Source: Callorhinchus milii
Lineage: Eukaryota
Assembly: GCF_018977255.1 (NCBI RefSeq)
Contig: NW_024704742.1
Span: forward strand, 42,224,001-42,288,000
Length of the DNA stretch: 64,000 bases
Direction of reading: 5' to 3'
Shown: one piece after another, positions 10,501-52,500 of the stretch
Position numbering within the stretch: the first letter of the stretch is position 1
Layout: the number at the start of each line of letters is the position of its first letter
Translations under genes and position numbers: made by a program
The notes under the pieces: model-generated
Database searches by the model: none
What the model saw: the letters and a program-made list of their open reading frames with translations, nothing else
What the model was told of the DNA's origin: nothing

Positions 10501-13500
10501 CCATGAAGTGAATGACCAATTTTATTGGGAGGGTTGTTGGTCTGGACACCAAGAGAAATTGCCTTCTCTCCCTTTTGAATAGTGTAATGGGATCCTTAAT
10601 GTCCAGTTGAAAAGACAGATGAGAATCTGATCCGAAATAATGAGATAATGGACATTTTAAAGAGTTTAGGTGACCTACAGCCTGTACAGGAAGGTAATCG
10701 AGGGGTATCAGTGCAGACTGAGCCTAAGGGTGCCTATCACACACTCCCTTGGTTTCAGCACTCAAGACTCTACCCCATTTGAAGGGAGCTATATAAATGC
10801 AAGTTTTTTTTGCTGTAAACCATTTGCAATACGCTTTTGCCATTTTACAGCCAGACCAGCAGGTGGAGTATTTTGTTGAAACAGCATGTTCTAGTAAGAG
10901 GGAGGTCCCAGTTAAATGTTGGCCAGACATGGAGCTCCATTGGCAGTGACCATGGAGAAGGAAATAAAAGGCAGTTCTGTAGGAACAAAGCCAGAGGGTT
11001 TTAAGAATATACATTTCAGGCAGAAAAATAACAGGATGTCAAAGAGCAGCAGGAACAGGCAAAGCACTTCCACCTGCAAAGGAGTTAAACTCTCTCCTTG
11101 GCAACAAACTTTATGGCTGTCTTAAGTGAGATTTTGCAAACCAAAACATCTTATAGTTTTGTACTGAGGTTGTATGTTTAGTGACAGGTACCTTTTTTTC
11201 CTGACAGGTTGCTGAATGCCAATAAAATAAACTGCCTGCGTGTGGATGCCTTTCAGGATCTCCATAACCTGAACCTTCTCTCTCTGTATGACAACAAGTT
11301 ACAAACTATTGCCAAAGGAACCTTTGCCCCTCTGCGAGCCATCCAGACTCTGTATGTATTCTCGGTTATTCATGAAGTGAATGATGCTAATTTGTTTTTC
11401 AATTTACTTACGTTTAGGGTCTGGGTTAGGGAGGGGGATACCAGCCAACATTCTTGTTGAACATCGCTCTCCAGTGGCTGTTGCTAGAAAGTTGCCTTGG
11501 GTGGACTCAGAAGGATAACCTGTGCTTTGATTTCCTTCCATGGTTGGACTGGACAGACTGTTGATATTCCATGTTCACATGTGATTTGGGACAGGAAGGT
11601 GGCCATTGCAAGTGGAACCGTACTGCAGCTTCAGTCACTCCCCATCTTGAGTCAAGACATATATCTTTGACAGCACTTCTTGTTATTTTTCCCCTCCTCA
11701 CCTCCTTTGGCTCACAACCTAAGTCAAGTGCTCAGCCAGCAGTGTCAAAGGCGTTGAGACATACTCCTGACAGGAAAGGCATTATATAAATTGTATTATT
11801 GGATTTAAATGTACTCACTCCTCCTGAAGAGGGATGGAAGAAAACTGGAGGAAATATAATTGAATTGAATTTCCCTGGGCCATGTCACTGTGTCTCATTC
11901 AGCACTCCAAGCAAGACAGCTCTTGCGCCATCCAGTAATGAGGTTCATGAGCAGCCATGGGAGCAAGTCGCTGTTCATGAATAGCATAGTGTGAATCATT
12001 GCGAGTGGAGACCCACATCCTGACTCAATTGTAATGGAGCACAGAGATACATTTAATTGGCGCAAGATGCGTTCAGCTAGGCCTAAGAAAATAAGTTTAG
12101 ACTCAGTGATGGATGTTTGGAACATACAGCCAGATGGGATTGGAGTCTCAAAAACATTAAAGACATTAAAACTGAAGCTGGATGCTGTATTTGGTGAGCT
12201 ATATTAGTAGAAGAATGAGTGTTAGTGGCTAAATGGCCTTTCATCGACTCTTAACATCGCTTATGTCTTTTATAGCAATTTACAGCACAGGAGACCATTT
12301 GACCCTTCAGGTCTGCACTTTGCCGAGGTCCTAGTGTTTGATCAAATGACATTATTTTAAGAATGAATAACTACAAATTAAATGCATACATCCCGAGACA
12401 TAACACCACTCCTCCACACTGAGCGCATTATCGGATTTCCTTCAGTTTCGTAAAGTCACTTGTTAAAAGGCTCATTTCCCATAGTTACCAGCAGTGCTCT
12501 GAAACCTGCTGCATCAGTGTATCTGATAAGCAAATGCTCTTCCAGCCAGAGCTTGCATTAAATAATTCAAGCATTGTCGTCTTGCCATGGCTCGTCAACC
12601 TGGGGGATTGGCCGTTTCAAAGTGGACACTCACAGTTACTGGGTCCGTTGCCAACTTGCACATTGTAGATTCTTAATGTTTCATCAGACTCCCAATAAAT
12701 GCATGTCAGCTGCAAATAGCAATCGTCAACATTGCCCAGATCCACCCGTTCCCAGTGAGTTACACCGGTTTCCTTTCAGGAGCCCCCAGCACTGCTGTTT
12801 CATATTTGTTCCAGCGTGCGCCTTATGTTCCTGGTTGACTTGACCCTGTGTCTACTTTATTTGCTTCTATTCCTCTCAAAAGGCATTTGGCGCAGAATCC
12901 GTTCATTTGTGACTGCCACTTGAAGTGGCTTGCCGACTACCTGCACGCAAACCCCATTGAAACCAGTGGTGCCCGCTGCACCAGCCCTCGCCGCCTGGCA
13001 AACAAGAGGATCGGGCAGATCAAAAGCAAGAAGTTCCGCTGCTCAGGTAATTGAATTCCGGCAACTTCGTTATTCTAGAAATGTGTGTTTTTTTTTAAAA
13101 AAAGAGCTCTCTTGGCATGCTGCTGATCTCACGTGGATTCTGAAAATGTGTCTGTTTTGCTGTTGAATTATTAAGGTTCTCAGCAGCTTTTCCCCTTTGT
13201 TTCTGACTCCGTGCTAACCATAGTAGGTCAGTCAAGTTCAATTTGACTTTGCCTTTTATTTTGCTGCTGTTGACAAGACAATAATGGAGTAATCTGTGGA
13301 TTTAATACAAAGTAAATTGTTTCTTTTTTTCTGGCCGCTAACATTCAGGTGCATCTCTTCTGTCTTTCTCTCTTTTGTTGTGTTTATAGCGAAAGAACAG
13401 TATTTCATTCCAGGTAGGTTTTCCTGCAGTGGGGCTGATGAGCTATGGATTTCCCTTAGGCTTTAGTGGAGTGTTGCATGCTGTAGTTGTGCAGTGAATC

Positions 13501-16500
13501 TCCCTTTAGACGGTCCCTTGCTTAGTCTTCCAGTAGCTGAATCTGTTGCATGTGCTCTTTTAGCTACCTAGCCAAATCCTTAAGTCTCCATGCTTCCTAA
13601 GCCTGCTATACAGTTGCCAATATGATGGGGTTCCTTTTATTCTCATTTTACTTTCTTGACACTCCCCCACCTAGGGACTTTTTTTTAATATTGATGTGTT
13701 CCCCAGTCTTCTTTGTTTGACTGGGGAACTTTCATGTATATTACACACATGTATGTACACATACACACAGATGTGGGAATACCAATATTTGAAACTGGAA
13801 GAAAGAGCAGGTGCTGCCCTTGGTTCACAGTTTTCCTCTCTAGTGGTTCGGAAAGGGCAAGGGGAGCTACTGGCCCTGCGATAGTTGCAACAAGTCAGTT
13901 TGATGCTTGAACAATCCTGTGGGTTTGAAACACACAAATATGTAGTGGTGGGCAAATTGAAATAAGGGTTTGCAGCCCTGAAAACAGGTAGAAATTCATG
14001 CTCGCCCAATCTCTTCAATCCTCTGACCTGCTCTGAGGCCTCTGCTATGGTTCTCTGAACCAGACACTTGATTGCACTGCTAGTTATCTGCCCTTTGCAT
14101 CTCCACGTTCGCCTCTGCTTTTTCCTTCTACAGGCTGAGATTGGAAACTTGCCCTTTAGTGAATCAACCTGTCACCGTAGAATTATAATTTCATAGAAAT
14201 TGACAAGATAGAAGAAGGCCGTTTGGCCCATTGTGTCTGTGCTGGCTACTTCAAGAGCAATCCTTTCAGTCCCATTTACTTACTTTTCCCCCATACTTCT
14301 GTAATTGACTCCTTTTACATATTTATCTAGTTCCCTTTTGAAAGCCAATCTGGATTTTTCCTCAATCCCCAATCCCGGTAGGGTGTTCCATATCCTAACT
14401 TCTCTGTATGTGAAAAAAAATCTCCTAACCTCCCCATTCGCTCATTTGCTAACTATCTTAAATTGATGCCCTCTTGTCACTGACTCCCTGTCCAGTGGAA
14501 ATAATTTCTGCCGATCAAAATCCATCAGAATTATAATGACCTCTATCAGATCACCTCTCAACCATCGTTATTCCAACAGAAAAAGTCCCAGTTCCTCTAG
14601 TCTCTCTTTTATCAACTCCTCTATTTCCTTGACATCCTTCCTAAAGTTGGTTGACCAATACTGCACGCAATATTCTTACTGTTCTCTAACTAATAATTTC
14701 TATCCATTTAGCATTACCTCTTTGCTTTTGTATTCTATACCCCTATTTACAAAACCTACACAACCTTTGAGGCTCATTTTCTGGTGACAAAATGGCAGAA
14801 TCGCTTCTGTTTTCCTGAGGAGGGCTTTCTCATCCCTACTGTGATAGGAGTTTACCAGATGCGTTGTTACAGAAAGAAGAGGCACTGACCAGGGCTGGGA
14901 GTATTCAGTCACTTTGAATTCCAAAAACTGATTCAAAAGATGAATGGTTGCCAAAAAGTTCCACCTTTAAAGAATTTTTTAAACATTGCAGGGGGTTGGT
15001 GGGGGGAGGTTGGGGTGTATGAAAATGATCCATCTTCATATTTTTGGCAACAGTGTAGCTGTGCTAGTGAAGTGTAATTCTGTTACTGCTCTAGCTAATG
15101 AAGATTAGATTGTTCCCAGCAGACAATTTGATCTGAATAGACCAGCTAATCTTCATGTCCATTAATAAACGATGATGTGTGGTGTGTGTGTTGTGTGAAT
15201 ATGAGTAGTGCATATCACTAATATGCTTGTGTGCCGGTATGAATGCAGAATGAGCATATTCTGACCTAACACAGAGTGGAGCTGCACTAAGAGTAAATCC
15301 CTAAGTACGGTCGAGATTGATTGCAGGAACTGTTTTGACTGTTTTTCAAGTTTTAAGCCTTGGTTTCCCAGAGTATTTGACAAATATGTCAAGTGAATGA
15401 AATATTTAACGTGTCCAACAGCAGGCTGCAGGCATTTTTTTTATAGCCAGAGGCAGTCCGAGTGAATACTGAAGCTCTTTTGATGTGCTTTGGTACAAAA
15501 TCCATGAAGTGGCCTCCCTTGTGTTTACCATCATTAGCTGTAAACACCCATTGCTCATGTACAATGTAAGGTTCTTGAAAGTGGTGCCACAGTCCAGTGC
15601 CTTTAGGGTTATAGATCAGGCAATAATTAAGGGTTTATTCCCAGATATCCCACACCAGCAGGGAACACTTGCCTGGCACTCTGTAACTTGTCGCTGGGAG
15701 TTGTCAAGAACCTTGCCTGACAGACAAGTGTTGCCCAGTGTTCAGTGCATCTTCACAATCGTACTGTACACAGGTGGGGTCGGATCCAGGTTAGTGCAGT
15801 ATTGCATTGTCTAAGTGCTTCCTAGTGAAAGTTATTTGAGCCAAGGATCTCTTCTATTCAGCCAAATTGACAACTGCTGCCCTGCAAGAATCTTAACACA
15901 AGTTTGGATTGGCTTCTTTGCTTTCCTGACTATAAATGCAATCGCTTTCTCTTTCTTTTTCTCTATCTTCCTCTCTCTCTGTCCCTTCTGCACTTTACTT
16001 TTTGCAGGAATTCACCATTTTGGCTGTAAGTACAACTGAGATCTTTATTCCCCACCTCTGGCACTGATTTCTCTTTCCCTCCAGTTGTTTTTCCCCTATA
16101 TGTACTGAGCTTGATCCTTCACCCATCATTCCTCACCTCTTCTCCTGGCAGTTCTCAACAAATCATCCAAGCCTCAGTAACAGTACCCCTACCCACCCCA
16201 GTACCATTCACGTGACCTCTCCCTGTTTTGTTAGCAGTGATACCAAGCACCAAGCTGGGGCACTTGATCTTAGAAAGAACTTCTCTTTCATTTAGGCATG
16301 TTTACTGCTTGTGTGTAGGGTACATTCTCAGTAGCTGTTACACTGTCCATTGTTACTGAGTCTGAAAAGCAATGTTTTGGCTGTGAATACCAGTGCTTTA
16401 GTACCCTTGACCCCTAATGCTACACCCTCTACCATTTAAATGCTGTGCCTTCTTTCCCGTAATATTTCCCCTCACACTTTTACCTGGCCTAGCTGATGCG

Positions 16501-19500
16501 GTTCTGGGACTCAGCGGGATTTTTCGTTGTGCTTGATCTAACCATGTGGTTGCAAGGTACGAATAAAACATGGTTCTGTCAAGCACCATGGAACGTCACG
16601 TAGCCTTCTACAGCATGCTCTCATCTACAGCAAATTCAGTAGATATATTTAGAGCGAGCCTGTCAAAGGCCACCAAGACTTGGGATGGTAGTATTGCAGG
16701 TGGAAGACGTTAGAGCCAGGAACTGTTTTATTGCATCTGTATTGAGGTCACAGCTGATTGAATTTCTCCAATAAAAAAACAATGGATAAAAATGATAGAC
16801 GAGGTATGGAGTGGAAAGGCAGGTGAGGGGGATGAATGCAATGAGTTTACCAGATGCCGTTATAGAAAGGAGAGGCACTGACACAGGGTTGGAAGTGTTC
16901 AGTCGCTTTGAATTCCAGTCACTGATTCAAAAGAATGGCTCAGGTGGGAGCAGTAAATTGAATTAGATAAGGCTTAGTAACACATGATTGCACTGGTTAC
17001 AGGAGAGTGGGAAGATTGCTAGCTTTGTAGTAGACAGTTGCATTAGAAGGTGTCTGCATTGAAAGGTCAGATTGTAAATGTTACCTCTACTCTTCCAGAC
17101 CCTGGCTTTACCTTTGTCATAAAGTTCAAGATCTAGGTGCTTAGGTCTTGAAGTTTTGCTATCTGTGTGGTTTTAATTAAAGTTCACCCTGAGATTCTCC
17201 TGCCCTGACATTTTGTTCAATTCCCTTGTACATTTCCACTTCTCTTACGGTGTGGGCTTTTTTTTCAATGTGCTTACTGAATAATATCTGCATTCTGACT
17301 GGACTCATCTGCAGGCACAGAGGATTACAGATCCAAGCTCAGCGGAGATTGCTTCATGGATCTTGCTTGCCCTGAGAAGTGTCGTTGTGAAGGAACCACT
17401 GTGGACTGCTCCAATCAAAGACTCACCAAATTCCCTGACCACATCCCTCAGTACACCGCTGAGCTGTAAGTTAACACAGCAGGGCTTGCTTCTTTACACA
17501 TGCACTCACACACACAACAGACACTCTCTCTCATCTGCATTTTGGCAACAAAACAAAGAAATTTAAAATTCATTTAGAAAACAGCTACAGGCAATATCCC
17601 AGCTTCCCTTCCAGCTGAAAGAAGCAAATGCACTCAGGGGAGAAGGGCTGTTGGATGCACATGATGACCAGAAAAGAAAGCAGGGGGAGAAACACTTAGG
17701 CTCCTGTTAGAAAGCATTGATGCCTACAGTGTGCTGGTCCATCACTCTACAAAACCTGATTCAGACAGTAACAAGCTCATCACGTTTAACTGGGTGGGTT
17801 TTCTTTCTGTTTGGCTGCTTTGGAGATGAACCTTGAACCCATATGTTACAAAAGATTAGTGAAGCAACCGCGAAGTATGAGCCACTAACTACATTAGTTC
17901 ATACTTTTGTGGGACATTGCTGTGCGCAATTGGCTGCCGCGTTCGCCCACAAATATACAGTCAATTCACTTTACAGTGTGTTCTGTGAAGCGCTTTGGGA
18001 CGTCCTCCCGACGTGAAAAGCGCTATATCAAATGCAAGGGTTATTATTATTATTATTATTATATTACTTGTAGTCCCGGTAAATACCAGTCAAACGCAAG
18101 GTTTATAATTATGAACTGATATATCGAGCGAGGTTGAGATGTCACGTTGCTAGATAAGGCAATACTGGAGGTTGACCCATATGAGGGAGAAATTCAACCT
18201 AGATTTATGTAACATTTTAGAGCATCCCTAATTTGGCAATTTTTTTAAATACAGTGCAGTCCTGTTACAGTATGCTTCTCTATAGTGTGACTGGCTTATA
18301 CCGGAGATGCACTGTGGATTCCATGCATTGTTCATGAGCGTACCCACAGCTCTCTCATTTCCTATGCATCAGCCAGCTTTTCACACTAAAATAACCGGCT
18401 TCCAATTCATTAAGACGCCTTCTGGGTCACTTCTTGCTTTGCTGCACGTGCACAAAACAGGAAGTGGTATCAATCACTCCCTACTGACTCCAAAGTCAAC
18501 CATTTTAGCTCTCCGAAAGCACTCACGAAAACGGCCAACTTCCAGGTCATCAGAATTGCCATTAACACTACTTCGCAACTTGTCCATATACACAAAAAAA
18601 CAGGAAATGACATTGCATTGATCAACCAACCTGGGAGCTGTCTATTTGTTTCTTTTCAGCGCTCTCTCTACGTGACGACCGATTGTGCACGTAAACAGTC
18701 AAATCCACTATCACACCTCACTATAAGTCAGGAGATGATTTTATGGATCCAAACAACATGTTTTAACAAGGATACAGAGCACAGTTTTAATTTTGTAGCT
18801 GGTTTTCTGTAAGTTCTTTTAAGAAAATACAGAAAACCAAAATGGAAGTTGAGACTGAATTTAGCAATTTGCCGAATTTAGCAGCTCTGAAATCTGTAAA
18901 GGTGTAGAGTAAACAGTGCTATGTTTCAGAGTAAAGGTATTAGTTCTGTATATCAGAAGGACTCAGTCTAACATTCCAATATAAAGATAATGTGATAAAA
19001 CTCACTCCCTTAAATCACAGTGTGATGATTCAACCCTTGTTCACAAAGTGGATTGTTTCACATTCTTGCATTTGCCAGTAACGTTAAACAGTTTGGTTCT
19101 GAAAGCACAAGACGTGTGACCCTTCAGTTAATGGTCAATCAACATGGTTGAGTCCTGTGTTTATAAGTATAGGTGGTATGATTTAGAGATACACTCAATG
19201 GTGGTACAAACCCACAGGCAGTAAGTCTGCATCTGGTTTAGAATGTATCTTCCGTTAGTAATAAAACTGAGTGGATTTAGAATTATTGTAAGTGTCACTC
19301 TCGCAGTACAGTATTATCTGAGAATACTTTGAAGTGATTTTTTTTCAAGATGAACTTCATTAAAGCTACCGCGAGAAAGACTACGCTAGCTGTAGGAGAT
19401 CTCAGTGGTTGCCTGACTGAGTAAAAACACTACTTTCTTCTGAATGACGTTTCCTAATTTTTTTTTCTTTTTTTTTTCTCTTGAATACTTCAGGCGCCTC

Positions 19501-31500: not shown

Positions 31501-34500
31501 TGATTACCCTTCCTTCTCCCCCTCCCCCCCTTCATCATTTCAGAAGGTCTCAGGGTGAGGTTCGGGGTTTGCACAATCACACGGCCAATATTATCTTTAT
31601 TAGCATTGAAAAGTAGCTGGTCCTGCAGTTCTCAGCATGCATGGAGCTGGATGATATGTGCTGGGCTCAGAAATAGGGTTGTAATTTATTTAACAGGCCC
31701 AATGCAATAGAGAACAGAAAGGATAAATCAGACTTCCTGGTGCACATTGCAGTATCACTGGGAGCGATATCACTTCACTCCCAGCAGAATATGCAAAGCA
31801 TTGAAGCAATCTCAGCGGAGCATGTGGCTTCATGATAGATATCTCAGCTATTAGAACAGAGACACTAACAATAAACAAGCAAATAAGAAACAAGGACCCT
31901 CAAATTTTCATGCTGATGGTTCCTTTGTGTCTTAATCTAGCTATAAAGGGGAATCTGTTTGTAAAGTCTGTGTCGGTTACGAGACTTTTTACAAAGTCAT
32001 TCAGAGATTGTCAGAACCAGCAGTAATTAATATTTGAAGTAGGCAATGGCAGCACTCAGTCTTGCTGAAAGTGTGGTTCTATTTAAAATCCCTAGGATCA
32101 ATGGCCCACAAATCACAGTAATTAATATTTAAAAGAACAAGTTCCAGTTTCACAAAGGAGTTGTATTAATATTTAACTCCAAGACGGCCATTAACAACCT
32201 TGCATAATCAACCATAATAAATATTTTAGCGCCACAGTAACAATTAACAGTCTCCCAGGAGACCTGATAATTAGAATTTAAAACAACTGTAAATAAAAGA
32301 CTTCCTCATTGGAGAAAAAAACTACAGGATCAAAAAGGATTTTTCAATCCTGTTAGCTCCTACTAGGACCTATAGGACATAATAAATATTATGTAGGATT
32401 TTTCCTATTTTATATGACTTTTTGACAAGAAACCTGTAGGGATTCTACAAAATATTTTGGTGCATGATACTCTCTGACACACAGGATTCACAGATGTCTT
32501 TGTTGTGCAAGAGGCTGTATTTGACTCGTGGTTGGAAGATAGAGGGTTGTTTGCAGTTGCTTGTTTCCCCCCCCCCCCCCCCCCCCCCACTGGGTTATCT
32601 GGGTGTCTTAACACATGCAAAAAAAACCTTGATGATTAAAACCAGACTGAGAGATTCGCATATGTATGTCACCTATGCATGGAATGGAATGTGCCCTGTT
32701 TCCCTGCTTACCTAATTCCAGAGAGTGTTAGACCCAGTTTGGGTAAGAGCCAAGACTTGAGGACCCCAGACCCCATTGAGGTACTGCTGGAGTTTAACCA
32801 GCTGAAACTGCATAGTTTGTCAATTAGAGCAATGCCTGGCAAGCTTCCTGCTGTTTGTCCAGCTAGTGTAATGCCTTGAATGGAATACAGTAAGATAAGT
32901 ATTCCAGAAAGATGAAATCAATTTCGCTGAAGGACCTTCTTCATTCTGAACATATCTTGTGAGGATCATCCTACCTGTTAGGACTTTGCTTTTGTTTTCC
33001 CTCCCCATTTGACATGGTTCTTTTCTGTTTCAGATATCTGGATGGAAATCAATTTACCATGGTACCCAAGGAGCTCTCTAACTACAAACACTTATTACTA
33101 ATGTAGGTACCTTCATGGGTATAATTTTAAGACAGTGGGAAAACAATCACATTCTTTTATTTTAGATTGATAAATAAGTGTAGGCAGGAAATTGAGGTCC
33201 TTGATAACCAATGTTTAGTTCAGAATCAAAGTGCTTTTAACTGAGCTGCTTTTACTATGTTGAAATTACTGTAAATAGTTGTTACCGATAATGGATTTAA
33301 AGGTTGAATCTGTACAGTGCTGAGATACACATATGATACAGGGATTGTACAGAAATGTATCTGTGTGTGTACAGTACTAAGATAGACAAAGATTAGGGTA
33401 ATTACACAATTACAGAGTATGTAGTTTACCTGTATTATTTCCTAAAATATATGAAGCATAACTAAAAATTGCGGCAGTTGTTGAGTGGCTTGGTAAGGAG
33501 CAGCATCAGGGTCTGGTGCAGATTGCCTGCCTATTCACTCGTCCAAAGAAAGATTAATGTCAAGAGAAGAAAGTAGGCAGAATACATAAAGGGTAATAAT
33601 ATTGTCATACATCTTGAGTTGTAACATTTACAACAACAACAACAAATTACACTTGTTTAGCGCCTTTCACTTCGGGAGGACTTCCCAAGGTCCTGGGATA
33701 TACCCATGAATACCATGTCTTGTAGCCACCCGCTTCGCTCAGCTCTCACCGTTGGTGGCCATGCTTTCTGCCACTGCTCCCCCAATCTCTGGAACCCCCT
33801 TCCTCTATCTGTAACCTTATTCCCTCTATCTATCCTTAAATCCCACTGTAAGACCTATCTCTTCGACTGTGCTTATGGTCACCTCCTGCTTCTCCCTTGC
33901 TCTGCATCCAACCCCACGATTTTCCTGCAGGAAGGTCACTCCATAAATGCAAGTTGTTGTTGTCTTATGACTCTGTGGAGAAATGTTCCTATCGGTGCTT
34001 CACTGCCATTCATCTTCTGTTTTTCCAGTGATCTAAGCAACAACAGAATCAGTACACTGTCCAACCAGAGCTTCAGCAACATGACTGACCTCCTGACTCT
34101 GTAAGTATTGATCTTCTAGTTTCAGTGGCCAGGTCCTGTGTTTGCTGTAAACATGCTTAAGGTTAATAAGGCCATAAAAAAAAGCAAACCAGGCATTGGG
34201 GTTCATTTCTAGAGGGATAGAAATGAAAAGCAGGGAAGTTATGGTGAACTGCTATAGAACCATGGTTAGACCCCACTTAGAATACTGTGTGCAGTTCTGG
34301 TCCCCACATTATAGAAGGGATGTAGAGGCACTGGAGAGGGTGCAAAGGAGATTCACAAGGATGATCCCAGAACTGAGAGGTTATACCTATCAGGAAAGGC
34401 TGAACATACTTGGGAATCTTTTCTCTTGAAAAGAGGAGGGTAAGGGTTGACCTGATAGAGATCTTTAAAATGCTGAAAGATTTCGATAGGGAATTTTCTA

Positions 34501-37500
34501 TTTTCTATAGGGAAATTTCTTCACATAGCGAGTAGTGGGAATGTGGAACATGCTACCACAAGGAATTGTTGAGGCAAATAGCATAGATGTATTTAAGGGA
34601 AAGCTAGATAGGTACATGAGGGAGAAAGGAATAGAAGGTTATGCTTGAAGGCTTAGTTGAGGAAGGGCAGTAGGAGACTCATGTGGAGCATAAACACCGG
34701 CATAGACCAGTTGGGCCGAATGGCCTGTTTCTTTGCTGTATATTCTAATGTATTTTAATGTAAGCATATTGGGTCGGTGGGAGGGGAAGTTGGCAAACAA
34801 ACGTGAGTGGGATTGATCTGACTCCAAGGTAACATGACTGTCAAAGGCAGAGCTGAGTCAAGTCCCAGTGTTAGACTTAATGATTGGATTCCTGAGCCAG
34901 TACATTTTCAGTGGTCCAGGAAACTGCTGATGATTTGTCAGCCTGCCTGGCTCAACAATAATACTTGGAGGCAAAGGCAAATCACTGGAGCTCTGGGAAT
35001 TCCTCCTCCTAATAGCCCTTCATGCCATGTCGTGATGGATACGCAGACAACATAGACAAGTGGCAGAGTGCTAGCTAATGCTTCATTCTGGTACTTTGTA
35101 CAGATTTAGATAGCCAACTCCAATGCATTTCAGGATAACTAATGGCTTGGCATCTGCCAACCTGTGCATGTGTTCTTCAGACATAGACAGTGTTTTTCTT
35201 TGCCTTTGTGATTTCTTAGTTCCTGAAACTAGACCTTCTTAAGCACTGCAAATGGTTTGCAAATGACTCAGACTCCCCAGCTAACCCTCTACTGAGCGTT
35301 TTCTGGACACTTCATAAAGAAACCTTTGTATGAACTCTGTAGCAAAGATTCACACTGGAGAAATGTTTCACGTGCGGAAGTTTGTACATTTCTGGTTACA
35401 GAGAGACATGTCTTTGGTTTTCACAGAATTCTGAGTTACAATCGTCTGAGGTGCATTCCAGCCCGGGCATTTGATGGCTTGAAGTCTTTGCGTTTGTTGT
35501 GAGTATTAGAAAAAATAGCACAGACCAGGTGATTCCTGTTGACTTTCAAGCTTAGTATTTCAGGTAATTAGTCCTGTCTACACCTCTGGCCACATTTAGA
35601 CCAGGGCTGTTTGTAGAACTTCATTTTTGAGAGCTGCAGATTGATTGCATTGCTGGTGACAATCTTTAAAAAAAAGTGTATTCTGAGTGGCAACATCTGC
35701 AGCAGAAAGAAGAAATGCAGTGGAGTGTAAACAGATCAGTGCACCACTTGCAAACAATCCCACACTGGCAAAAATACTGCAGTTCCTTCTCCTTCACTGT
35801 AATGTGTGTGACACCTTCTTAAAAAAAATGTTGCTACGGATTAAAAGCAGATTGCCTCCCACAACACAGTGGAGATGGTGCCCCTTTGGAAGGTACACGC
35901 GCACACTTTATTTTTGTTGCTAAGACAGACAGATGGAGCTTTCTGGCACAATATGCGAGTGTTTGACTTTGACTTCTATATGAAACTTGTCAAAACTGAA
36001 TGCCTTTTCTTAGCACGACTGTAAGGAACAAAGCTGGCTGGAAACTCTGATCACAGTAGACGGAACTCAGTGCTATCATAGGTTATTTTTCTCTAGCTAA
36101 TGGACTGTTGGCAGGATTGATCTTATTGCAGTTAGAAAAAGGCTTGACAGTGCTGACTAGCTGTCTGTATCCCATCTAACATGCAAACAGGATCTAATTG
36201 TTGCTTGAGGCCAGGGTCCTGAAATTGTGCATGGAATTAGCCTGAAACCGTTTAAGTGAGGAATTTTGGAAAACAATCTTAATTTGAAAGATGTACTCAC
36301 AGTACCCCAAAAGAATTGAGGGAAATTAGTTTCGAAATTAAGATTGAATTTCAGAATGTGGTCCAAAATTTCTCATACTCTTACATTTTAAGATAATGAG
36401 AAATGTTGGGCTTCAGAAGAGTAGAGGCTGAAATGAACCACTGGCCAGCAGTATTCATTGTCCATTACAACTTCTTTCCAGGTCTTTGCATGGGAATGAT
36501 GTCTCCACTATTCCCTCAGGAGTTTTCAATGACCTCTCCTCATTGTCCCACTTGTAAGTACAAATTCCAATATGATCTTTTCATTATTTCAGTGCTTCTG
36601 GTTAAGAGGGCACTTTCTTTCTCTGGGATTTCAGTGGATAGAATTACCCCCCCCCCCCCATACCAATGATGTAGTGGATTGAGCTGCAGGTTATAGACCA
36701 GGAGTTTGCTGGTTCGAATCCTGGTTTGTGCTGAGTTTGCTGGTCTCAGCCACTATATGGGGAGGCAAGCTTCCAACGATCTTGCTCCTGTTCTCTCTTC
36801 AACACCTTCTACTGGTTATGAAAGTGATTGATAGCTGGACAGCGAGAGGTCAGGCTTGGCTGTGTCTCCCTCTGCAGTTCTCTGGTTTGCCAATACTCAC
36901 TGCCAAGGTTCAAGGTGAACGGACACCACTTGGGCATAATATTGGAGAGCAAGACTTGGCCGTAGAACAGTACCCAAGCAAGTTGAGGCCAGACCAGGAG
37001 CAGAGACACTTGCCATAGGGGAGAAAATGCTTAAAATATTGGATACAATAAATTAATATTAAAAAGAGGTTATCAATAAAAATATTGCATCGATAGATGT
37101 AAAGATCACTGGTGCAATATTTTTTGAATAGCGCCTTTCACATCGGGAGGACGTCCAAGGCACTGGTCAGTGTTTCGAACCCGAGCTGGGGTACGGGATC
37201 AGGAAGGGTGGAGAGCAGGGGGGGATGGAGGGTCATAGAGGAGGGTGTTGAAGGAGGGAAGGGTGAAGGTGAGGCGGAGGGACAGCGGGATGACGTTCCA
37301 GAGGGTGGGGGCAGAGTGGCCAAAGGCCGCCTGTCAATGATGGGGCGGGAGAGGGGGGGGATGTGAACTAGTCCGGAGCCCGCTGAACGGAAGGAGCTGG
37401 CAGGTTGGTAGGGGATTAGGAGGTCACAAAGGTAGGAGGGCGTAAGGCCATGGAGGGCTTTGAAGGTGACGACCAGGATCTTGAACTGTATCCTCTGTGT

Positions 37501-40500
37501 GATTGGAAGCCAGTGGAGTCTCAGGCTTGTTTGCGTTCTGGTCAAGGGTGTAATTATACCCCACAAAATAAATATCAAATATCAATTAACTGGATCTAAA
37601 TGAACTAAAGAACATTCTTGTCCCTACAGGGCCCTTGGAGCAAACCCTCTCTACTGTGACTGTAAAATGCAGTGGTTGTCTGACTGGGTGAAGTCTGGCT
37701 ACAAGGAGCCAGGCATTGCTCGCTGTGCAGGACCTGGTGACATGACAGATAAGCTCCTGCTCACAACCCCGTCTAAGAAGTTTGAATGTCAAGGTATTGC
37801 CATCAATTCTTCACACTCTCTCTGCACCAAAGACATCTTTGTATCAATGCGAGGAATTAAACCAGCAATGTCTAACATAGTTTATCTATCCAATCAGTTA
37901 GCAGTAATCAGTTATTAGTGTAATGGCGAACTTTGATTTTAACTCCCAAAGAGAGCTTTATGTAACCTTTAATTACCCTTTGACTTTCTTTCTTTGCCTT
38001 TTCTTGTGTGTAATCTAATACTCTTTAATCTTTCACTTGCGACCTCTGTCACCCCATTCCCTGCCTATAGAGATTCCAGGGCCTTGCGGGTTTTTGGTGC
38101 CAGGTAAGCCAACCGAGCAGCCCTTGGCAATGATGGATGGTGTTAAACGGACCTTCTGCCTCTCCTTAAATGTGACCCAAAACAATTACCTCAATCCCTC
38201 CAGCAGATATGTTTTCCCTAGACTAGCAGTGTCGGGTTTGGAGAGAATGTACAGTTTTCACACTTTCAGTCCTTGACCTCTGCCTTCAAACACAAGCTGT
38301 GTGTGGGCTTAAGCCTAGGATGAGTGATGATTGTGGAGCGTTGTGTATGTCTTGAAAGTTGTATTACTTCTGTGTACACTTTGAAGTTTAATTATAATTA
38401 AGAACAAAACAATTTTTTGTGGATTTCAGACTATTTTTTAACAATGGGGCCAGTGATGCCTGTTTAACACAAAAAATCTCTGTATGCATCACTATGCCGT
38501 TTACCAGCAATTGTCCATTTGTAACCCTTCTTGACACTTTAAGAAAGTAATCTGCAGAAAATTCACAAAATGAAACAGTAAAAAAGGTTAATATTTACCT
38601 CATCCTTGTAAAGCGCTCTGGTTCCTGATACTTGTGCTTTGCACCACACCTGCAGAATGGTGCAAAAAAAAAGTATGCGAGCCAACACTTGTAATTGTTT
38701 ATTTCACTTCATTTTGTTTGTGGGACATTGCTGTGCACAAATTGGTTGTTGCAATTGGCTGCAAAACACACAATGATAGTAAATTTTTGAAATCCATTGA
38801 GACGTTCTTCTGGTGTGAAAGGTGCTATATCAACTGCAAGGGTTATTATTATAATTTCTGCCCAAATGTTGCTTGTCAAACATCAGGTGACTTCAGGTTT
38901 TTTGGGGTTTGTATCCTACACCACAATTTGGATTTAGCAATTTTTTTAGTTTTGATTGACCCAAACTATGCTAACGTGTGGTGAAAAACAAACGATGGGG
39001 GAGCAGTGCACTAACACAAAATAGTCTTGTGATTATGTTGGCAATTCAATGAGTTCCACGTTTCCTAACCATTTCCTATTACTAACCCATAATGTAAAAC
39101 TCACTTGACTTACACAATTTATTTTACTTTTTAAAGGTCCGGTTGACATTGGTATTCTGGCCAAATGTAACCCTTGCTTTTCGAACCCATGCAAAAATGA
39201 TGGAACTTGCTCCAATGATCCTGTGGATTTCTACAGGTGCACCTGTCCTTATGGATACAAGGTATGTTTGTCACTTGAAATGGAGCAATCTGTGTTCTGC
39301 GATTATGTATGGTGTGCTAGCCATACATCCATAACTTATCATCTGGGAAAGTGCTGTGTGCAGGATTCAGGATTTGCATTTATAAGTTACTTTAAAATAA
39401 AATCATAGGAAAGTGCTCTTTCTACACCCAAAGAAGACAGATGATTAGATATAATCTGACGAAGGGCCTTGGACCCGAAACGTTGACTCACTTTCCTTTC
39501 TCCATAGATGCTGCCTGACCTGCTGAGTGTTCCCAGCGACTTCTTTTTTGAATTAGATATAAATATATTGCTTGCACATGCTGCCTGGTCCTAGAACTCC
39601 CAAGATCGCTGCTTTCTAATTATGCAATGAGATCTTCAGCGTCCACCTGCACAGGCAGACGAGAACTCATTTTAAGCTCTTTTCCACAAGATAGAACCTC
39701 CGACAATGCAGCACATCCCCAGCACAGCATTGGAACATCAGCATAGACCAACTGGTGACCCACGGGCCACACCCGGCCTCCTCTTGCTCCATTTCATCTG
39801 GTCCACCCACTCCCTCCATAACCCGTAAATGTTATGTTTCTGGAAGGGAAACACAAACATATTACTTATACAGCCTATGGACGTTTCTCAACTAGGCCAT
39901 CTTGCCAGCCACGCACATGCACACGAGAATATGCTTCCCTTACTCCGGTCGTTTGATTGGGATTATTGTGAATCAAAGGAAAAGTACGAACATCAAAATT
40001 AACAGGAAGCAAAAGCCACTAGTCTTCCAGGATGATAGAGAAAATCTTGGAACAATAGTAGACTAATAAACTGGCCCATTTCTGTTTGCTAGTTACATTT
40101 TCCAAAATGTGAAATCTTACGTATTTTCAACAAATAGTTTTTGTTGAAAGCCAATAGTTTTTGTTGAAAGCCATTGCATTCTGAGCCATGAGCCAAACTG
40201 CATTTTCGAGTCCAGGCTTGCACCTGCAACATGCTATTTGTTTCCTTCCACCCACTCACTCTGGCACGTGTATACACTGAAAGCACAGTGTGGTGTCTAT
40301 CACCGGTTACAAAAGGCTTCTGTAAACACAATCTTCAGCAGAGCACTGTGCAGGGCAGGCAGTAAACTGATGGCATTTCCAGACAATATTATTTTTATTA
40401 TTGTTGTTCCAGACATTATTATTATTATCATTCCAGTCAAGAATGATTGTATGCAACTGTAACAATAACCCGAAAGGCCTGAAAACTTAAATAAATATTT

Positions 40501-43500: not shown

Positions 43501-46500
43501 AATGAGCTGAGTGGCTTGAACAAAGCACTCCTTCTCGGTCAGGCTGGTGGAGAGTGTGAGAGCACTGAGACCCAGGCGTTTCCTAGTGATTCACCTGGTG
43601 ATCGATGGCATGTCAACGCAGCGAAACAAAGAAATGTAAAAGTCATTCACAGACAGCTGCACAGAAGCTAATGAGCAAAGTCCGCAAGCTTTTTAGATGT
43701 CAGGATATTAAATAAAAGGCTTAGATTAGTGCAGCTGCATGGTTCATGAATTATGAAGCAGATCGCTCGATTAGTGTACTTTAATAATTTCACATGAGAA
43801 TGGCAATTAATTCATCAAGATGCTTGTGTGTACGGGTGGCTCCATGCTCGGGCACTTCATTAAGGTATTAAAAGTCCCTTTTCTTAGAAAGACTTAACCA
43901 GCTACAGGTTTGCATCAAAAAAATGTTTTAATAAAGCCACTAATTTTAAGCACTTATAGTAAGTATTACAGTTAATAGATGTGAAGAACATTTAATGAGA
44001 TGGAAAGAGTAATAATTTGCATTCGAAAAGTCTAATCCCTTTTTTGAAACTCAGGAAACTGAGTGAAGGACTGGGGTCACTATCATTTAAATAGTACTGT
44101 ATGTCGCCAAGTTAAAAAGAACAGAGGCAAAACCAGATAACGTAACAAGTGGCCACTGATAGCAAGCTTGGGTTCAATATAATCGTCTGAGGGAGGGAAG
44201 CCTAAAGGTGGTAAGGAATTGCACAGTTCAGGTCATGAGAAAGATTGAGTTACAGTAGGAGATTAGGTTCCACCTATTTTTTAAAAAAAAATAGCTTGAT
44301 GCTATGATGGGGGGACAGTAGGGTGGGTCTTCTGGAAGGTTGAGATCCGATGGGCCAAAAGGTTGCCTTCATCCAAAACCAATCTTGTGAATTCAGAGAA
44401 GATGACGAGTGAATACCCCACCCCAACCGCCCTACCATCGCTGGCCGGGCCTTCAGCCTCTCAGTCCCTAGGCTCTGGAACTCTATCCCCCAGTGCCTTC
44501 GCCTTGCCTCCTCCCTTTCCTCCTTCAAGGCCGGTCTCAAGACCTTTCTCTTTGACCGTGCCTTCAGCTCCCCTCTCGACTCTCTACCCCCTCCTCGCTC
44601 CCTCCCTTCCCTCACCCTGACCATTTCCCCCCTGCTCGGGTCCTGACCCAACTGTACAGCGCCTTGGGACGTCCTCCTGACGTGAAAGGCGCTCAATAAA
44701 TGGAATCTTGTTGTTGTTGAGTGGGCAACTCAACATATTTGAATATTGGGTGGAATAAGAGAGGAATTCTCAGAGGAGCAATGGGAATTAATGAAATTGA
44801 GACAGGAGAGAGCGAGAGAGGGTGGATACACATTGTCTGATATGTGACCCACCTCCCTGATGGAGGGTTACATGCACAATGTGTATCCTGTCCAGTTCTG
44901 CAAGAGAGATGTTAGAAGAGCATCGCCAACAAAAGGGCAATGCCCAGAGACAAATTTGGAATTCATAGAGACTTGGGCATAGTTGGCGCAAAAAGAGGAA
45001 GCTTAGTTACTTGGAGTTAGGTTTAATAATGTAGCAGATGTGAGAATTCCACTTGAGATGTGAGGAGATAGTAAGATTAGGCAGTCATGGTTAGACCTAT
45101 GAGAGACATGGAGAAACAGCATCTTTGAGGAATTGAAAGAAACAAAGATTAATATTGTCACATTAGAGGAAAGCCAATGTTTACTGATTGTCAGTAGACA
45201 TGATGAACCTTATGTGTACTGAGATGAATTGATGAATTGATTATTTTCTTAGTATTAAAACCATTTTCTGAAAATGTAAGATGATGACCAATTTTGGACA
45301 TTTTTGAAAAGTAAATAAAAATTAAGAGTAAATTTTAAAAAATTCCAAACTTCCGTGCGATCTTAAATGTTTTTTATTCTGGTTTCCACTACGAGGTGCC
45401 TCAGTGAGAATGTATGGCGTGACTTGTCCTCTTTCCTCAGGTGCTCATGCGCTGATGGCTTTGAGGGTGAGATCTGTGAGGTGAACATTGACGACTGTGA
45501 AGACAACGACTGTGAAAATAATTCAACCTGTGTCGATGGAATCAATAACTATACCTGCCTCTGTCCACCTGAATACACAGGTAAGGAGTTGATGCCAACT
45601 CAGTCTTTCCTAAAGCATGCACATGTACACACACATGCAAACATTGTACACTTATATACACAAATACACATACATGTACAAAGACACCATAGATTAGAGC
45701 ACAATTCAGTCTGTCACAATATGGCACAAATAATGGGAACTAATTCATATGGCAGTATTTAATTCCTTGTGTTTTTTTATGGTTATTAATAAAAATCTTT
45801 ATGGAAATAAAGATGTATTGACCTGTTTGAATAGCGGCAACTTGTAGTGTAATAGGAAATTATGGTTTATTTTAGGTATTCTTAGTTTACCCTTTCTGCT
45901 GGTATAGGGTTCCACAGTAGCACTTGTGTGCAAGGAATCATTTCATATTGTTTTGATACATCCATTGAAACCTGAGATGTTAGGAGAGTTCAGGCTCTTC
46001 AGCGTGTGTGACCCTGTGAATGTGAGGGCATCAGCAATAAGGTTATTCTTACAAGTGTCCAATGACCACATGCTGTTTCCAGAAGGAGTCAGTCAGTAGA
46101 GTTCAGAAATGGACATTGAACAAGACACCTTCCTCACATGTAATAGTTCAGCACTATATGGAGTCCTATGTGAAGTCCTGTAGCTCAGTGGTTAGAGCAC
46201 TCGCTTTGCAAGTGAAAGACCTGAGTTCAATTCCAGGCAGGGCGAAACCTTGGGCAAGTTTCCTTACTCCACACGCCTAATAATAATCCCTCCAAAAAAT
46301 CAAAACAATAATAAATTGGTCATTTTCAGTCTACGACTGTTTGTGCGCAATTGGCTGCCGCGTTCGCCCATAAATATACGGTCAATTCACTTTACAGTAT
46401 ATTCTGTGAAGCACTTTGGGACGTCTAGAAGACGTGCAAAGTGCTATATCAAATGCAAGGATTATTATTATTATTATATTCCACAATGCAGTTTGTCACT

Positions 46501-49500: not shown

Positions 49501-52500
49501 ACCATTGAAGCCAGGCGAGGGTAGGGATGTTAGGGTCACGGAGCCTGGTGCGGAAGAGGACATGACCTGCAGAGTTCTGAATCATCTGCAGCTTGTGGAG
49601 GAAGTTGGGGAGGCCGACAACCAGGGAGTTGACGTAGTCGAGCCTTGATGTATAAATAATTGCATGGATGAGAGTTTTGGTGGCCTGAGGTGTGAGGCAG
49701 TGACAGAGCCGGGCGATGTTGCGGAGGTGGGGGAAGGCAGAGCGGGTTATGGCACAGATGTGGGTAGAAAGGACAGTTGAACGTCAAACAAGATGCCAAG
49801 GTTCCGGACTGGCTCAGTGAGATGGAGTGTGCATCCTTGGATGGTGAAATTTCAAAGTTGAATTCAACAACCTGCCAAATTTTGGATGCTCTAAAATGCT
49901 AGATAAATACAGTGGATCTAAGACCCACTGGAATTTCTCCCAATTTCTCCCCAGATAAAACATTTATCTGTTTAGTTCCATTCTCTAGCTTCTCCAATAC
50001 ACTTTTATATTTTTCCTTCTGTATATTTATTTAATTCACTCCTAAAATCTAATAAGGATTCTGCCTCCAACCACTGTTCCAGGAAGGGCTTTCCAATCAC
50101 ATTACCCACTGAACAGGTTGTTAAATAAAGGAAAATAGTTGTTGATCTACACCAAGGTGGTGGTTTAAATGGATGCTGTGACCCATGGGGGATTTGGCAA
50201 AGCTAACGGAGGGACATCAGCGATAGGAGGAAACAGTGTAGAATAGTAATACGACAAGAGAATGGAATTGCATAGGACGGATTTGCATGAAAACCAAGAA
50301 CAATTATTGAGCTGATACTTTCTCTGCTGCATTGTACTGTTGCAATGTTTTGAAAAGAGTAAACTCAGAAAATCTCTTGTTTCTTCTGTCTCTTGTCACT
50401 CCAAGCTGCTAATCTGAATGAGGTGGAAAAAGGTCAGTTGCAGTCTGTTTCTCCCCTTTTGTCCTTCCATCCTGCTGTTAGACAAGGACCATTTTTGTTT
50501 CTCTCTTGTGCCTGTCACCCGCTTGTTCCTTGGAAATGAGGTGCATGTTTTATTTTTCTCTCCCTCCCCCACCCCAACGCTCACACTTACAGTAAATTTA
50601 CTTTCTTATTATTTCAGCACCACACTGGTGATAGGGATAGGGACATGCAGGTCAAGCTACAGTCCTCCAAATTAAAAGCCCTCTTCATGTTTCAGTGTGA
50701 AAAATAAAATGCAGGTTCAGATACAACTAATCTCTCGGTCCATCGGCCAGTGAAAAGCTGTGTCCTTGTGTTGCCGGAGTCCAAAATAAGATTATTGCAA
50801 GCTCGAAAGTCAAAGAACTTTAATTGTGACTTAAGGTTCCAGAATGAAGTTAAGGTGTAAACCCTCGACAGCCCAGCGCCTTGGGTTGTCCTCACGACGT
50901 AAAAGGCACTATGTAAATGCAATTTGTTGTTGTTAAAATTACGGGTAAAGATTTGCCAAAAATCTTTGATCCCGGAGGCTGGGGAAGGCAACTCCTAGAG
51001 TCAGGGTTTAGCTCTTGCCATGTTTCTAGCCAAAAAAAGCCTGAAAGGTCTGAGAAAAGGTCTGAAATGAAGCAGAGCCACTAGATCTTATTTCCCAGTC
51101 TTTGCGATCACATTTTTTTTGTGCAACAGCTTTAGAGGATCCGTTAACAATTTCATTCACAATCCGTAAATCACAGTGACTTCTGGTTTCTGCCTATCAC
51201 ATTTTCAACCTCATTAGCTCATTGGTACAGAGAAATGATTGCCCTTTGTCGCCATACCAGTCTCTATCTAACTATCCTATTTTTAACACAGAGAAAGAAA
51301 TAATGTGATTTTTACAGAGCCTTATCACATCGAATGGATACAAAATGCCTTACCTTCAAGCAAAGCGACTGATTTTGTAGGTAAACTGACATCTGTACGT
51401 TCCCTTTATCACTCAGTTGAATTGAAGGATATTATTGAAATAATAAGATTGGTTGAAAAATAGGAAAATGAGCATACTAGTGAGAGGATACATAAAACGA
51501 AAGAACAGAAAGAAGTCTTAAGTGATATCCACAGAGTCAGGGCTTGGACATTTTTGTGTTTAACCTATATTACTGACATCGGAGGTGGGGGGATGTGCTA
51601 CGGAGGCAAAAAAAATTAAACTTCAGATAGAAGCTGAATGCGGTATTGATTAAGGTAGGATTATGGTGGAATGAAACACCTTTTCTTGTCCTTCACTTTC
51701 CATTGTACTTGCTGTGTAGCTTTGTAGCACTCTGCTATTGAGGCAGGGCATTTTATTATAGGTGTGAGATCTTGAACAATTTGGTGTGTCACTTAATGGG
51801 GCCTCTGGTGAGTTCTGTGTCACTTTGATTCATCTAGTTAAGAATAGTACATTTCAACTCTAGCACCATGAATTGGCAAAAGTAAGATAAATAATGCAAT
51901 TATCAGAAAACTGGAAAGCAGTAAGATGCATAATCACCACCATTCTGCAGAAAGGAAATCTCTGCGGTAAGATTCATGGTATAATTACAGCATACCCAGT
52001 AGAAACAAAACATTACAATAAAAAAACAGAGTACACCTCTGGAGGGGCAGTAAAGGATTGAAATATACATGAAATTCTCTTTTCCATTAACAGCAACTGT
52101 ATTGAAATTGGTTGATTAATGTGGCTGACACTCGTAAGAGAGTGCAGTATTGCAGGAATGGAAATCTGCACCTCTGCAACCAAGATAAGCTTTTGAAGCT
52201 TAATCCTTAACATTTACACCCATAGATGCTGGCAACTAGGCCTTCCAGGGGAGATAAACTAGCAAATGAATAGTCACTCAGTGGGAATGTTGGAATTGGA
52301 CACATAACAGAGCCTAAGGTTAGCTGTATAACATGCAGTTATACACAGAAACTGGCCACCAGTGACATTGTGGGTCTTTTTGCACGATTGACTGGTCTCC
52401 AATGCCAGAGTCCTATTCTCTTACATTCCACATATTGGTCTACATGGGGTCAAAAATAGGTTAGTGCTGTAAAAGGTACGTTTGAATAACCACAGTATAC

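What the first reader, a model, noticed from the sequence alone, without database searches (positions are those of the whole stretch)
13390..50432. A four-microexon combinatorial code in Slit2, two members acting as possible cysteine switches
Seen: four symmetric phase-1 cassettes of 24, 18, 33 and 27 nt. Three fall in inter-domain linkers (two in D2-D3, one in D4-EGF1) and one splits the last loop of EGF3. All lie in the N-terminal Slit2-N fragment, upstream of the PR|TSP cleavage site. Up to 16 isoforms are possible, and both unrecognised exons add exactly one Cys. Inference: tissue-regulated tuning of Slit2 geometry or oligomerisation; if both are included, the two new cysteines might pair with each other.
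Basis: inference. Interest (0 to 1): 0.75.

Follow-up and report, generated by a model that had tools for sequence, protein, structure and literature searches.

The report
Conserved cysteine-adding microexons in Slit2
Four tiny optional exons of the axon-guidance gene Slit2 are real and conserved in jawed vertebrates; two are already published, and the other two each put one extra cysteine into a hinge between protein domains, which could change how the protein folds or pairs up.

Summary
The window is the Slit2 gene of a chimaera: its exons are 100% identical to UniRef proteins named Callorhinchus milii. In a crude splice-site score each is the best candidate of its length in its intron.

Each encodes a peptide found at the same junction in predicted Slit2 isoforms of other vertebrates:
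- 24-type: 159 of 318 models that span the site
- 18-type: 26 of 318
- 33-type: 27 of 335
- 27-type: 86 of 323

The cysteine is present in all 26 and all 27 carriers. The 24-nt exon is human SLIT2 exon 15. The 27-nt exon matches the published SRRM4-dependent mouse microexon.

The 18- and 33-nt exons are already in RefSeq-type models (sharks, teleosts, frogs, lizards, a jay, one primate), so they are not truly unrecognised. I found no paper describing them.

My added point is that both cysteines fall in the equivalent loop, between the last C-cap cysteine of an LRR domain (D2, D4) and the conserved linker cysteine. Including one exon makes the cysteine count odd.

Whether the two cysteines pair with each other is untested. 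No RNA evidence could be obtained for this species.

The parts
12883..13046 (+). Slit2 D2 C-terminal cap exon. It ends in phase 1 after the last C-cap cysteine (...KKFRCS).
   Evidence: tblastn to the Callorhinchus models. Junction peptides are supported exactly by P0114, P0117 and others.
13390..13413 (+). 24-nt cassette, the orthologue of human SLIT2 exon 15 (AKEQYFIP)
   Evidence: The peptide is in 159 of 318 models. The exon 15 identity comes from passages of PMC12607519.
16008..16025 (+). 18-nt cassette. It encodes IHHFG plus a Cys codon completed by the next exon (T|GC).
   Evidence: An 18-type insert [IV]H[HR]x(1-3)C is in 26 of 318 models, and all 26 end in Cys. The insert is identical in sharks and rays (IHHFGC).
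17315..17465 (+). D3 N-terminal cap exon. It carries the conserved linker cysteine (..SGDC..) followed by the four N-cap cysteines.
37630..37793 (+). D4 C-terminal cap exon. It ends in phase 1 after ...KKFECQ.
38071..38103 (+). 33-nt cassette encoding [11 protein letters not shown], with one internal Cys
   Evidence: A 33-type insert is in 27 of 335 models, all with the Cys. It matches the frog insert 9 of 9.
39137..39261 (+). EGF1 exon. It begins with the linker [11 protein letters not shown], whose Cys is a seventh cysteine ahead of the six of EGF1.
45441..45580 (+). Exon with the end of EGF2 and EGF3 up to ...CPPEYT, ending in phase 1
50406..50432 (+). 27-nt cassette. It turns ..YT-G-ELC.. 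into ..[15 protein letters not shown].., between Cys5 and Cys6 of EGF3.
   Evidence: A 27-type insert is in 86 of 323 models, including a lamprey Slit2-like model. A nine-residue SRRM4-dependent Slit2 microexon is reported in mouse (PMC4387716 passages).
55779..55872 (+). Exon with the end of EGF3 (G-ELC) and most of EGF4
58310..58315 (+). Arg-Thr codons of the ..MVLPR|TSPC.. motif, the recalled Slit2-N / Slit2-C cleavage site. All four cassettes lie upstream of it.
   Evidence: Translation. That this motif is the cleavage site is recalled, not tested.

Best explanation
All four are genuine, evolutionarily conserved, frame-preserving cassette microexons of Slit2.

Two are known: the 24-nt exon is SLIT2 exon 15, and the 27-nt exon is the SRRM4-dependent neural microexon.

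The 18- and 33-nt exons are optional exons found across jawed vertebrates. Each places one extra cysteine inside the same structural element: the loop between the last cysteine of an LRR C-cap (D2 and D4 respectively) and the conserved cysteine of the following linker. From recall, not checked here, that linker cysteine is disulfide-tethered back onto the preceding LRR domain.

Inferred mechanism: the exons lengthen these tether loops and, when only one is included, make the cysteine count odd. The isoform must then either carry a free thiol or re-register the tether disulfide.

The most likely consequence is a change in the hinge geometry of D2/D3 and D4/EGF1, and/or covalent locking of the D4-mediated Slit2 dimer. 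This would modulate Slit2-N signalling in the tissues that include the exons.

Shown: the exons, their conservation, the invariant Cys, their position relative to the conserved cysteines, and the parity arithmetic.

Inferred: the disulfide partners, any effect on geometry or oligomerisation, and tissue regulation.
For: Gene identity:
- Exon-by-exon identity of 90-100% to Callorhinchus Slit models, with best named hits slit homolog 2.

Exon reality:
- Splice signals are the best of their length class in each intron.
- Orthologous insert peptides map with 0 mismatches, each at only one place, onto the exons.

Carriers among 350 Slit models:
- 24-type: 159 of 318
- 18-type: 26 of 318
- 33-type: 27 of 335
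- 27-type: 86 of 323
- By source names the 18-type occurs in sharks and rays, teleosts, frogs, lizards and a jay. The 33-type occurs in the same groups apart from lizards, plus a thrush and a primate model.

Cysteine:
- Present in 26 of 26 and 27 of 27 carriers, while neighbouring residues vary.

Architecture:
- In P0115 each of D1-D4 has 4 N-cap Cys, one LRR Cys exactly 48 residues before the C-cap, 4 C-cap Cys and one linker Cys (at +11, +14, +9 and +12 in the canonical form).
- The new Cys sit at +8 or +16 (18-nt exon) and at +7 (33-nt exon).
- The linker Cys are kept in the distant Slit representatives that cover these linkers, and none of those carries the extra Cys at the D2-D3 or D4-EGF1 site.

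Parity:
- Canonical mature protein 106 Cys, one exon 107, both 108.

From papers:
- D4 is the homodimerisation domain and its C-cap takes part in the interface. Its last C-cap Cys is Cys907 in human Slit2, two residues before the insert site (PMC2693880 passages).
- Published function exists for the exon 15 variants (PMC7720527 and PMC12607519 passages) and for the nine-residue exon (PMC4387716).
Against: - No RNA evidence for this species.
- The 5 Callorhinchus models hold only the 24-nt exon.
- Support for the 18- and 33-nt exons comes from predicted gene models. Their RNA support I could not see, and their exon combinations are not phased.
- All 12 mammal-named models span both sites; 0 carry the 18-type and 1 (a submitter's model) the 33-type. 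The same models also lack the published 27-type (0 of 11), so this sample is a poor guide.
- The tether disulfide is recalled from Howitt et al. 2004, which was not held. No multi-domain Slit structure is in the PDB copy.
- The AlphaFold model gives the D2-D3 linker pLDDT below 50 and pTM 0.39, so it neither shows nor excludes any pairing.
- PMC4387716 places the nine-residue exon in the 'fifth EGF domain', whereas here it is in the third EGF after D4.
Confidence: 0.55

Rival explanations
1. When both exons are included, the two new cysteines bond to each other within one molecule. This bridges the D2-D3 linker to the D4-EGF1 linker and closes D3-D4 into a ring.
For: - Double inclusion restores an even cysteine count.
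- 15 of the 26 models with the 18-type insert also carry the 33-type, against 12 of 281 models without it.
- Both cysteines are invariant.
Against: - The co-occurrence is in predicted 'longest isoform' models, not in sequenced molecules. Single-inclusion models are as common (11 and 12).
- The two sites are separated by two whole LRR domains.
- The only model made has an unreliable domain arrangement (pTM 0.39) and disordered linkers.
- No structure of more than one Slit LRR domain is available.
Confidence: 0.15
2. The 18- and 33-nt exons are conserved but the cysteine chemistry is incidental. They act only as spacers that lengthen inter-domain hinges, as the cysteine-free 24-nt exon does.
For: - The 24-nt exon and the teleost D1-D2 insert lie in the same kind of loop without adding Cys.
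- Published exon 15 variants differ in activity without any cysteine change.
Against: - The Cys is the most conserved position of both inserts, 26 of 26 and 27 of 27, while flanking residues vary. Examples are IHHFGC, VHHVGC and IHHINKC for the 18-type, and PGPCGF, PGTCGF and SGPCGF for the 33-type.
- In cyprinid and characin models the 18-type insert is one residue longer yet still ends in Cys.
Confidence: 0.2
3. In this species the 18- and 33-nt sequences are relics or splicing noise. The matching models elsewhere are propagated annotation rather than used exons.
For: - No RNA evidence was obtained.
- The five Callorhinchus models lack the two exons.
Against: - Intact AG/GT, pyrimidine tract, open frame and phase are kept here.
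- The peptide is identical or nearly so to sharks, frog and jay. An unused intronic stretch would not be expected to keep this across such distantly related vertebrates.
- The models come from independent pipelines (NCBI XP_ records, Ensembl/UniRef and submitters' annotations).
Confidence: 0.08

Closest known systems
Human SLIT2 exon 15 (8 residues, AKEQYFIP) and the SLIT2-deltaE15 variant
   Same: The 24-nt exon at 13390-13413 encodes the same eight residues at the same place, after the D2 C-cap. The variants are reported to differ in activity (passages of PMC7720527 and PMC12607519).
   Different: None for the 24-nt exon itself. The 18-nt exon lies in the same intron, just downstream, and none of the papers I could search mentions it.
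nSR100/SRRM4-dependent nine-residue Slit2 microexon of mouse (Quesnel-Vallieres et al. 2015, PMC4387716; passages read)
   Same: A 27-nt, nine-residue insert in an EGF domain of Slit2-N. It is the only nine-residue EGF insert seen in the 24 models aligned end to end, and the 27-type motif was found at the EGF3 loop in 86 of 323 models.
   Different: The paper says 'fifth EGF domain'; here the insert is in the third EGF after D4. SRRM4 dependence could not be tested. There is no UGC within 40 nt upstream of this copy.
Predicted Slit2 isoforms in public annotation, for example XP_071982122.1 (Engystomops pustulosus X1), XP_041444146.1 (Xenopus laevis X1), XP_051893388.1 (Pristis pectinata X6) and a Cyanocitta cristata model
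   Same: They contain 18-type and 33-type inserts at the same junctions, with the same cysteines.
   Different: They are automatic models. No name, study or function is attached, and none was retrieved for Callorhinchus.
Robo1/Robo2 microexon 6b (Johnson et al. 2019, PMC6687390; search listing and a review passage only)
   Same: It is a conserved microexon in the same signalling pathway that tunes repulsive strength.
   Different: It is in the receptor, not the ligand. It is NOVA-regulated and involves no cysteine.
d16HER2 splice variant (search listing only; its mechanism is recalled)
   Same: It works like the proposal: a splicing change leaves an unpaired extracellular cysteine, which gives disulfide-linked dimers.
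   Different: It is an exon skip in a receptor kinase in cancer, not a conserved microexon, and it is unrelated in sequence.

Membership tests
Slit2 orthologue | Four LRR domains with N- and C-caps, EGF repeats and a laminin-G domain, in Slit order, with best similarity to Slit2 rather than Slit1 | tested here: met
   Exons align in order to Slit models. The Pfam families on those models are LRRNT, LRRCT, EGF and Laminin_G. The top named hits are slit homolog 2. The three Slit1-named models printed are only 58% identical on the D3 N-cap exon.
SLIT2 exon 15 cassette | 24-nt phase-1 exon encoding AKEQYFIP between D2 and D3 | tested here: met
   The definition comes from passages of PMC12607519.
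SRRM4/nSR100-dependent neural microexons | Length 3-27 nt, frame-preserving and conserved | tested here: met
   The 18-, 24- and 27-nt exons meet the length limit; the 33-nt exon exceeds 27 nt (the limit is recalled). All four are multiples of 3 and conserved.
SRRM4/nSR100-dependent neural microexons | UGC motif close upstream of the 3' splice site (recalled definition) | tested here: inconclusive
   TGC lies at -5 and -19 (18 nt) and at -9 and -33 (33 nt). There is none within 40 nt for the 27-nt exon, which is the published SRRM4 target, and only one at -40 for the 24-nt exon. Several constitutive exons also have TGC.
SRRM4/nSR100-dependent neural microexons | Neural-specific inclusion that depends on SRRM4 | not testable with these tools
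   No RNA data could be laid.
Disulfide-tethered inter-domain linkers of Slit LRR domains (recalled from Howitt et al. 2004) | One LRR cysteine at a fixed position, plus one cysteine in the linker after the C-cap, in each of D1-D4 | tested here: met
   In P0115 the LRR Cys lies 48 residues before the first C-cap Cys in all four domains. The linker Cys are at +11, +14, +9 and +12. They are kept in the distant Slit representatives that cover these linkers.
Disulfide-tethered inter-domain linkers of Slit LRR domains (recalled from Howitt et al. 2004) | The two cysteines actually form a disulfide | not testable with these tools
   The paper is not held. PDB entries are single domains.

The most novel reading that the evidence does not exclude
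Alternative splicing works as a disulfide switch in a secreted guidance cue. The 18- and 33-nt exons each offer a second cysteine to a disulfide-tethered hinge. Single inclusion would re-register the tether or expose a thiol that locks Slit2 dimers covalently. Double inclusion would cross-link the two hinges and fix D3-D4 in a closed form. That would give discrete, covalently defined conformers of Slit2-N with different Robo/heparan-sulfate signalling.
Probability: 0.12. Interest if true: 0.8.

Novelty: new member of a known kind. Interest (0 to 1): 0.5.

Why it matters
Slit2 is a central guidance and angiogenesis cue, and its isoforms are usually ignored in experiments. Two of its optional exons already have reported functional effects.

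If the other two are used in vivo, common recombinant Slit2-N reagents lack conserved cysteine-bearing hinge segments. Those segments could control oligomeric state or domain geometry.

The finding gives precise, cheap tests: junction RT-PCR, non-reducing gels and Cys-to-Ser variants. It also gives a structural rationale, because the inserts sit in the loops that hold the linker cysteines.

Tried and rejected
So there is no read evidence either way.

2. Structure. I ran AlphaFold2 on residues 241-1020 of frog isoform P0115, which has both inserts, with a 50-row alignment.
- Mean pLDDT 80, pTM 0.39.
- The D2-D3 linker has pLDDT below 50. The 33-nt insert has pLDDT about 67-73, with two short strands.
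No conclusion was drawn.

3. I first thought D4 lacks a linker cysteine, so that the 33-nt exon would supply it. The census showed a seventh cysteine just before EGF1 that fills this role, and I dropped the idea.

4. The argument that a T as last exon base is kept to encode Cys was dropped. Many constitutive exons here also end in T.

5. The UGC motif as a sign of SRRM4 control is inconclusive.

6. A whole-chain exon search against one Callorhinchus model failed because those models are incomplete. I replaced it with junction-by-junction mapping.

7. Papers. Howitt 2004 and Morlot 2007 are not held. A search for the recalled Drosophila slit 11-residue splice form found nothing. Searches for descriptions of the 18- and 33-nt exons found only the 24- and 27-nt exons.

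8. Earlier scan notes held nothing relevant.

9. Complex prediction was not used, because a D4 dimer would pass by likeness to the solved entry 2WFH and say nothing about the cysteines.


Full report
**What the window is**

The + strand carries a run of LRR, EGF and laminin-G exons. The D3 N-cap exon, used as a query, found 263 proteins. The best 120 listed are almost all named slit homolog 2, and two UniRef entries named Callorhinchus milii are 100% identical.

tblastn of those models back onto the window gives an ordered chain of exons at 90-100% identity, running from the middle of D2 to the laminin-G domain. I fixed every exon border junction by junction, requiring that the spliced peptide occur exactly in a database protein. 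The ..MVLPR|TSPC.. motif lies at 58295-58321, downstream of all four cassettes. That this motif is the Slit2 cleavage site is recalled, not tested.

**The observation**

The four cassettes are at 13390-13413 (24 nt), 16008-16025 (18 nt), 38071-38103 (33 nt) and 50406-50432 (27 nt). Each has AG and GT borders and a pyrimidine tract of 16 of 20, and each is symmetric in phase 1.

Such open AG..GT stretches are frequent by chance: 12, 18, 4 and 32 of the same length and phase in the same introns. Each true exon is nevertheless the only one that reaches its own scores on both splice sites.

The spliced readings are as follows:
- ..KKFRCS-[AKEQYFIP]-G-[IHHFG-C][12 protein letters not shown]..
- ..KKFECQ-[[11 protein letters not shown]][11 protein letters not shown]..
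- ..CPPEYT-[AANLNEVEK]-GELC..

The 18-nt exon makes its Cys codon across the junction (T|GC). The 33-nt exon has an internal TGC.

**Conservation**

I collected 350 Slit models in total:
- 120.
- 125 more from two region searches with the frog isoform P0115.
- 105 cluster members.

I read the residues between the flanking exons in each model. Of the models that span each site:
- 159 of 318 carry the 24-type insert.
- 26 of 318 carry the 18-type insert.
- 27 of 335 carry the 33-type insert.
- 86 of 323 carry the 27-type insert.

By source names, the 18-type insert (IHHFGC, VHHVGC, VHHLGC, IHHINKC and the like) occurs in sharks and rays, many teleosts, frogs, two lizards and a jay. The 33-type insert (E[IV]PGPCGF[LP][VI]P and close variants) occurs in the same groups apart from lizards, plus a thrush and one primate model.

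Every carrier has the cysteine: 26 of 26 and 27 of 27. Insert peptides taken from a sawshark, a frog, a jay and an antbird map with 0 mismatches, each at only one place in the six frames of the window, exactly on the four exons. The only other near hits are four 1-mismatch hits to the 5-residue 18-nt query.

A lamprey Slit2-like model carries 24-type and 27-type inserts. The Slit1 models I looked at directly carry the 24-type sequence.

All 12 mammal-named models span both sites. None has the 18-type insert and one has the 33-type. The same models also lack the published 27-type insert (0 of 11), so this says little. The five Callorhinchus models hold only the 24-nt exon.

**What is already known**

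- Exon 15 of human SLIT2 encodes AKEQYFIP at the end of D2. The exon-15-deleted form is reported to behave differently in lung-cancer and endothelial assays (passages of PMC12607519 and PMC7720527).
[quoted passage not shown] That paper says 'fifth EGF'; here the only nine-residue insert is in the third EGF after D4, a discrepancy I could not resolve.
- For the 18- and 33-nt exons I found nothing in print. The searches were 'Slit2 + microexon' (15 papers), 'Slit2 + alternatively spliced + exon 15', the peptide strings and 'Slit2 / splice variants / unpaired cysteine'. Supplements were not examined, and subscription journals are mostly not held.

**Where the cysteines fall**

In P0115, which has all four inserts, each LRR domain has the same cysteine plan:
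- four cysteines in the N-cap;
- one in an LRR, exactly 48 residues before the first C-cap cysteine (C165, C386, C626, C821);
- four in the C-cap;
- one in the following linker (C268, C506, C727, C936).

C936 is a seventh cysteine just ahead of the six of EGF1. These linker cysteines are kept in the distant Slit representatives that cover these linkers, drawn from a library clustered at 50% identity. None of those carries an extra single cysteine at the D2-D3 or D4-EGF1 site.

I recall, but could not re-read, that Howitt et al. 2004 describe the Slit LRR domains as joined by disulfide-tethered linkers. The PDB copy holds only single-domain Slit structures: 2V9S/2V9T, 2V70, 2WFH and 1W8A.

Both cysteine-bearing exons, the 24-nt exon and a teleost 4-residue insert in the D1-D2 linker (outside this window) all lie inside the loop between the last C-cap cysteine and the linker cysteine. 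The new cysteines sit 8 or 16 residues after the last D2 C-cap cysteine (18-nt exon, without or with the 24-nt exon). The 33-nt exon's cysteine sits 7 residues after the last D4 C-cap cysteine. The canonical linker cysteines sit 9-14 residues after.

The mature canonical protein has 106 cysteines, one exon makes 107 and both make 108. D4 is the homodimerisation domain and its C-cap takes part in the interface. Its last cysteine, Cys907 in human, is two residues before the 33-nt insert site (passages of PMC2693880).

**Reading**

The exons are real optional exons. Given the invariance of the cysteine, it is very likely selected at the protein level.

The most economical mechanism is that the inserts change the length and the disulfide state of the tethered hinges. 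A single inclusion must leave a thiol unpaired or shift the tether to the nearer cysteine. Next to the D4 dimer interface, a free thiol could lock the dimer covalently.

It also fits the over-representation of double carriers among models: 15 of 26 models with the 18-type insert also carry the 33-type, against 12 of 281 without it. But gene models tend to pack all exons into one 'X1' form, and single carriers are as common. The AlphaFold model gives no usable inter-domain geometry: mean pLDDT 80, pTM 0.39, D2-D3 linker below 50, coordinates not readable.

**What is missing**

There is no RNA evidence for this species. Tissue regulation, co-inclusion and all of the disulfide chemistry remain to be tested.

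**Verdict**

Two of the four exons are published. The other two are already in automatic annotation of other species but, as far as I could search, are undescribed. Their placement in the loops that hold the linker cysteines gives a concrete, testable mechanism.

Noticed in passing
Outside the window (D1-D2 linker); seen in teleost models P0036, P0041 and P0151-P0154, alignment columns 280-286: A further optional 4-residue insert (for example xxEG after ..EFVCTD) sits in the D1-D2 linker, again between the last C-cap cysteine and the linker cysteine. Slit2 therefore has at least five optional mini-inserts, four of them in this kind of loop.
   Followed up: partly
Bird models P0209, P0399 and P0406, at the D2-D3 junction: Three bird models carry a different 4-residue insert (NFLS / NFLR) at the junction where the 24- and 18-nt exons go. 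It may be a bird-specific 12-nt exon or a modelling artefact.
   Followed up: no
window 35495-35498 (donor of the LRR exon 35427-35498): Two Callorhinchus models differ by one residue here (..RLLSLHG.. against ..RLSLHG..). They use GT donors 3 nt apart. This may be an alternative tandem donor or a model error.
   Followed up: no
window 53996-54028 and 54053-54085: Two near-identical copies of a short stretch lie 57 nt apart, inside a region whose translation resembles the repeat-derived ORFs seen elsewhere in the window (for example 33661-34029 and 58886-59284). These look like interspersed repeat copies in the introns.
   Followed up: no
Arthropod-like Slit representatives P0247, P0318 and P0392, D3-D4 linker: Some distant Slit representatives have a longer D3-D4 linker with three or four extra cysteines. 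Cysteine content of Slit hinges therefore varies in evolution, and not only through splicing.
   Followed up: no
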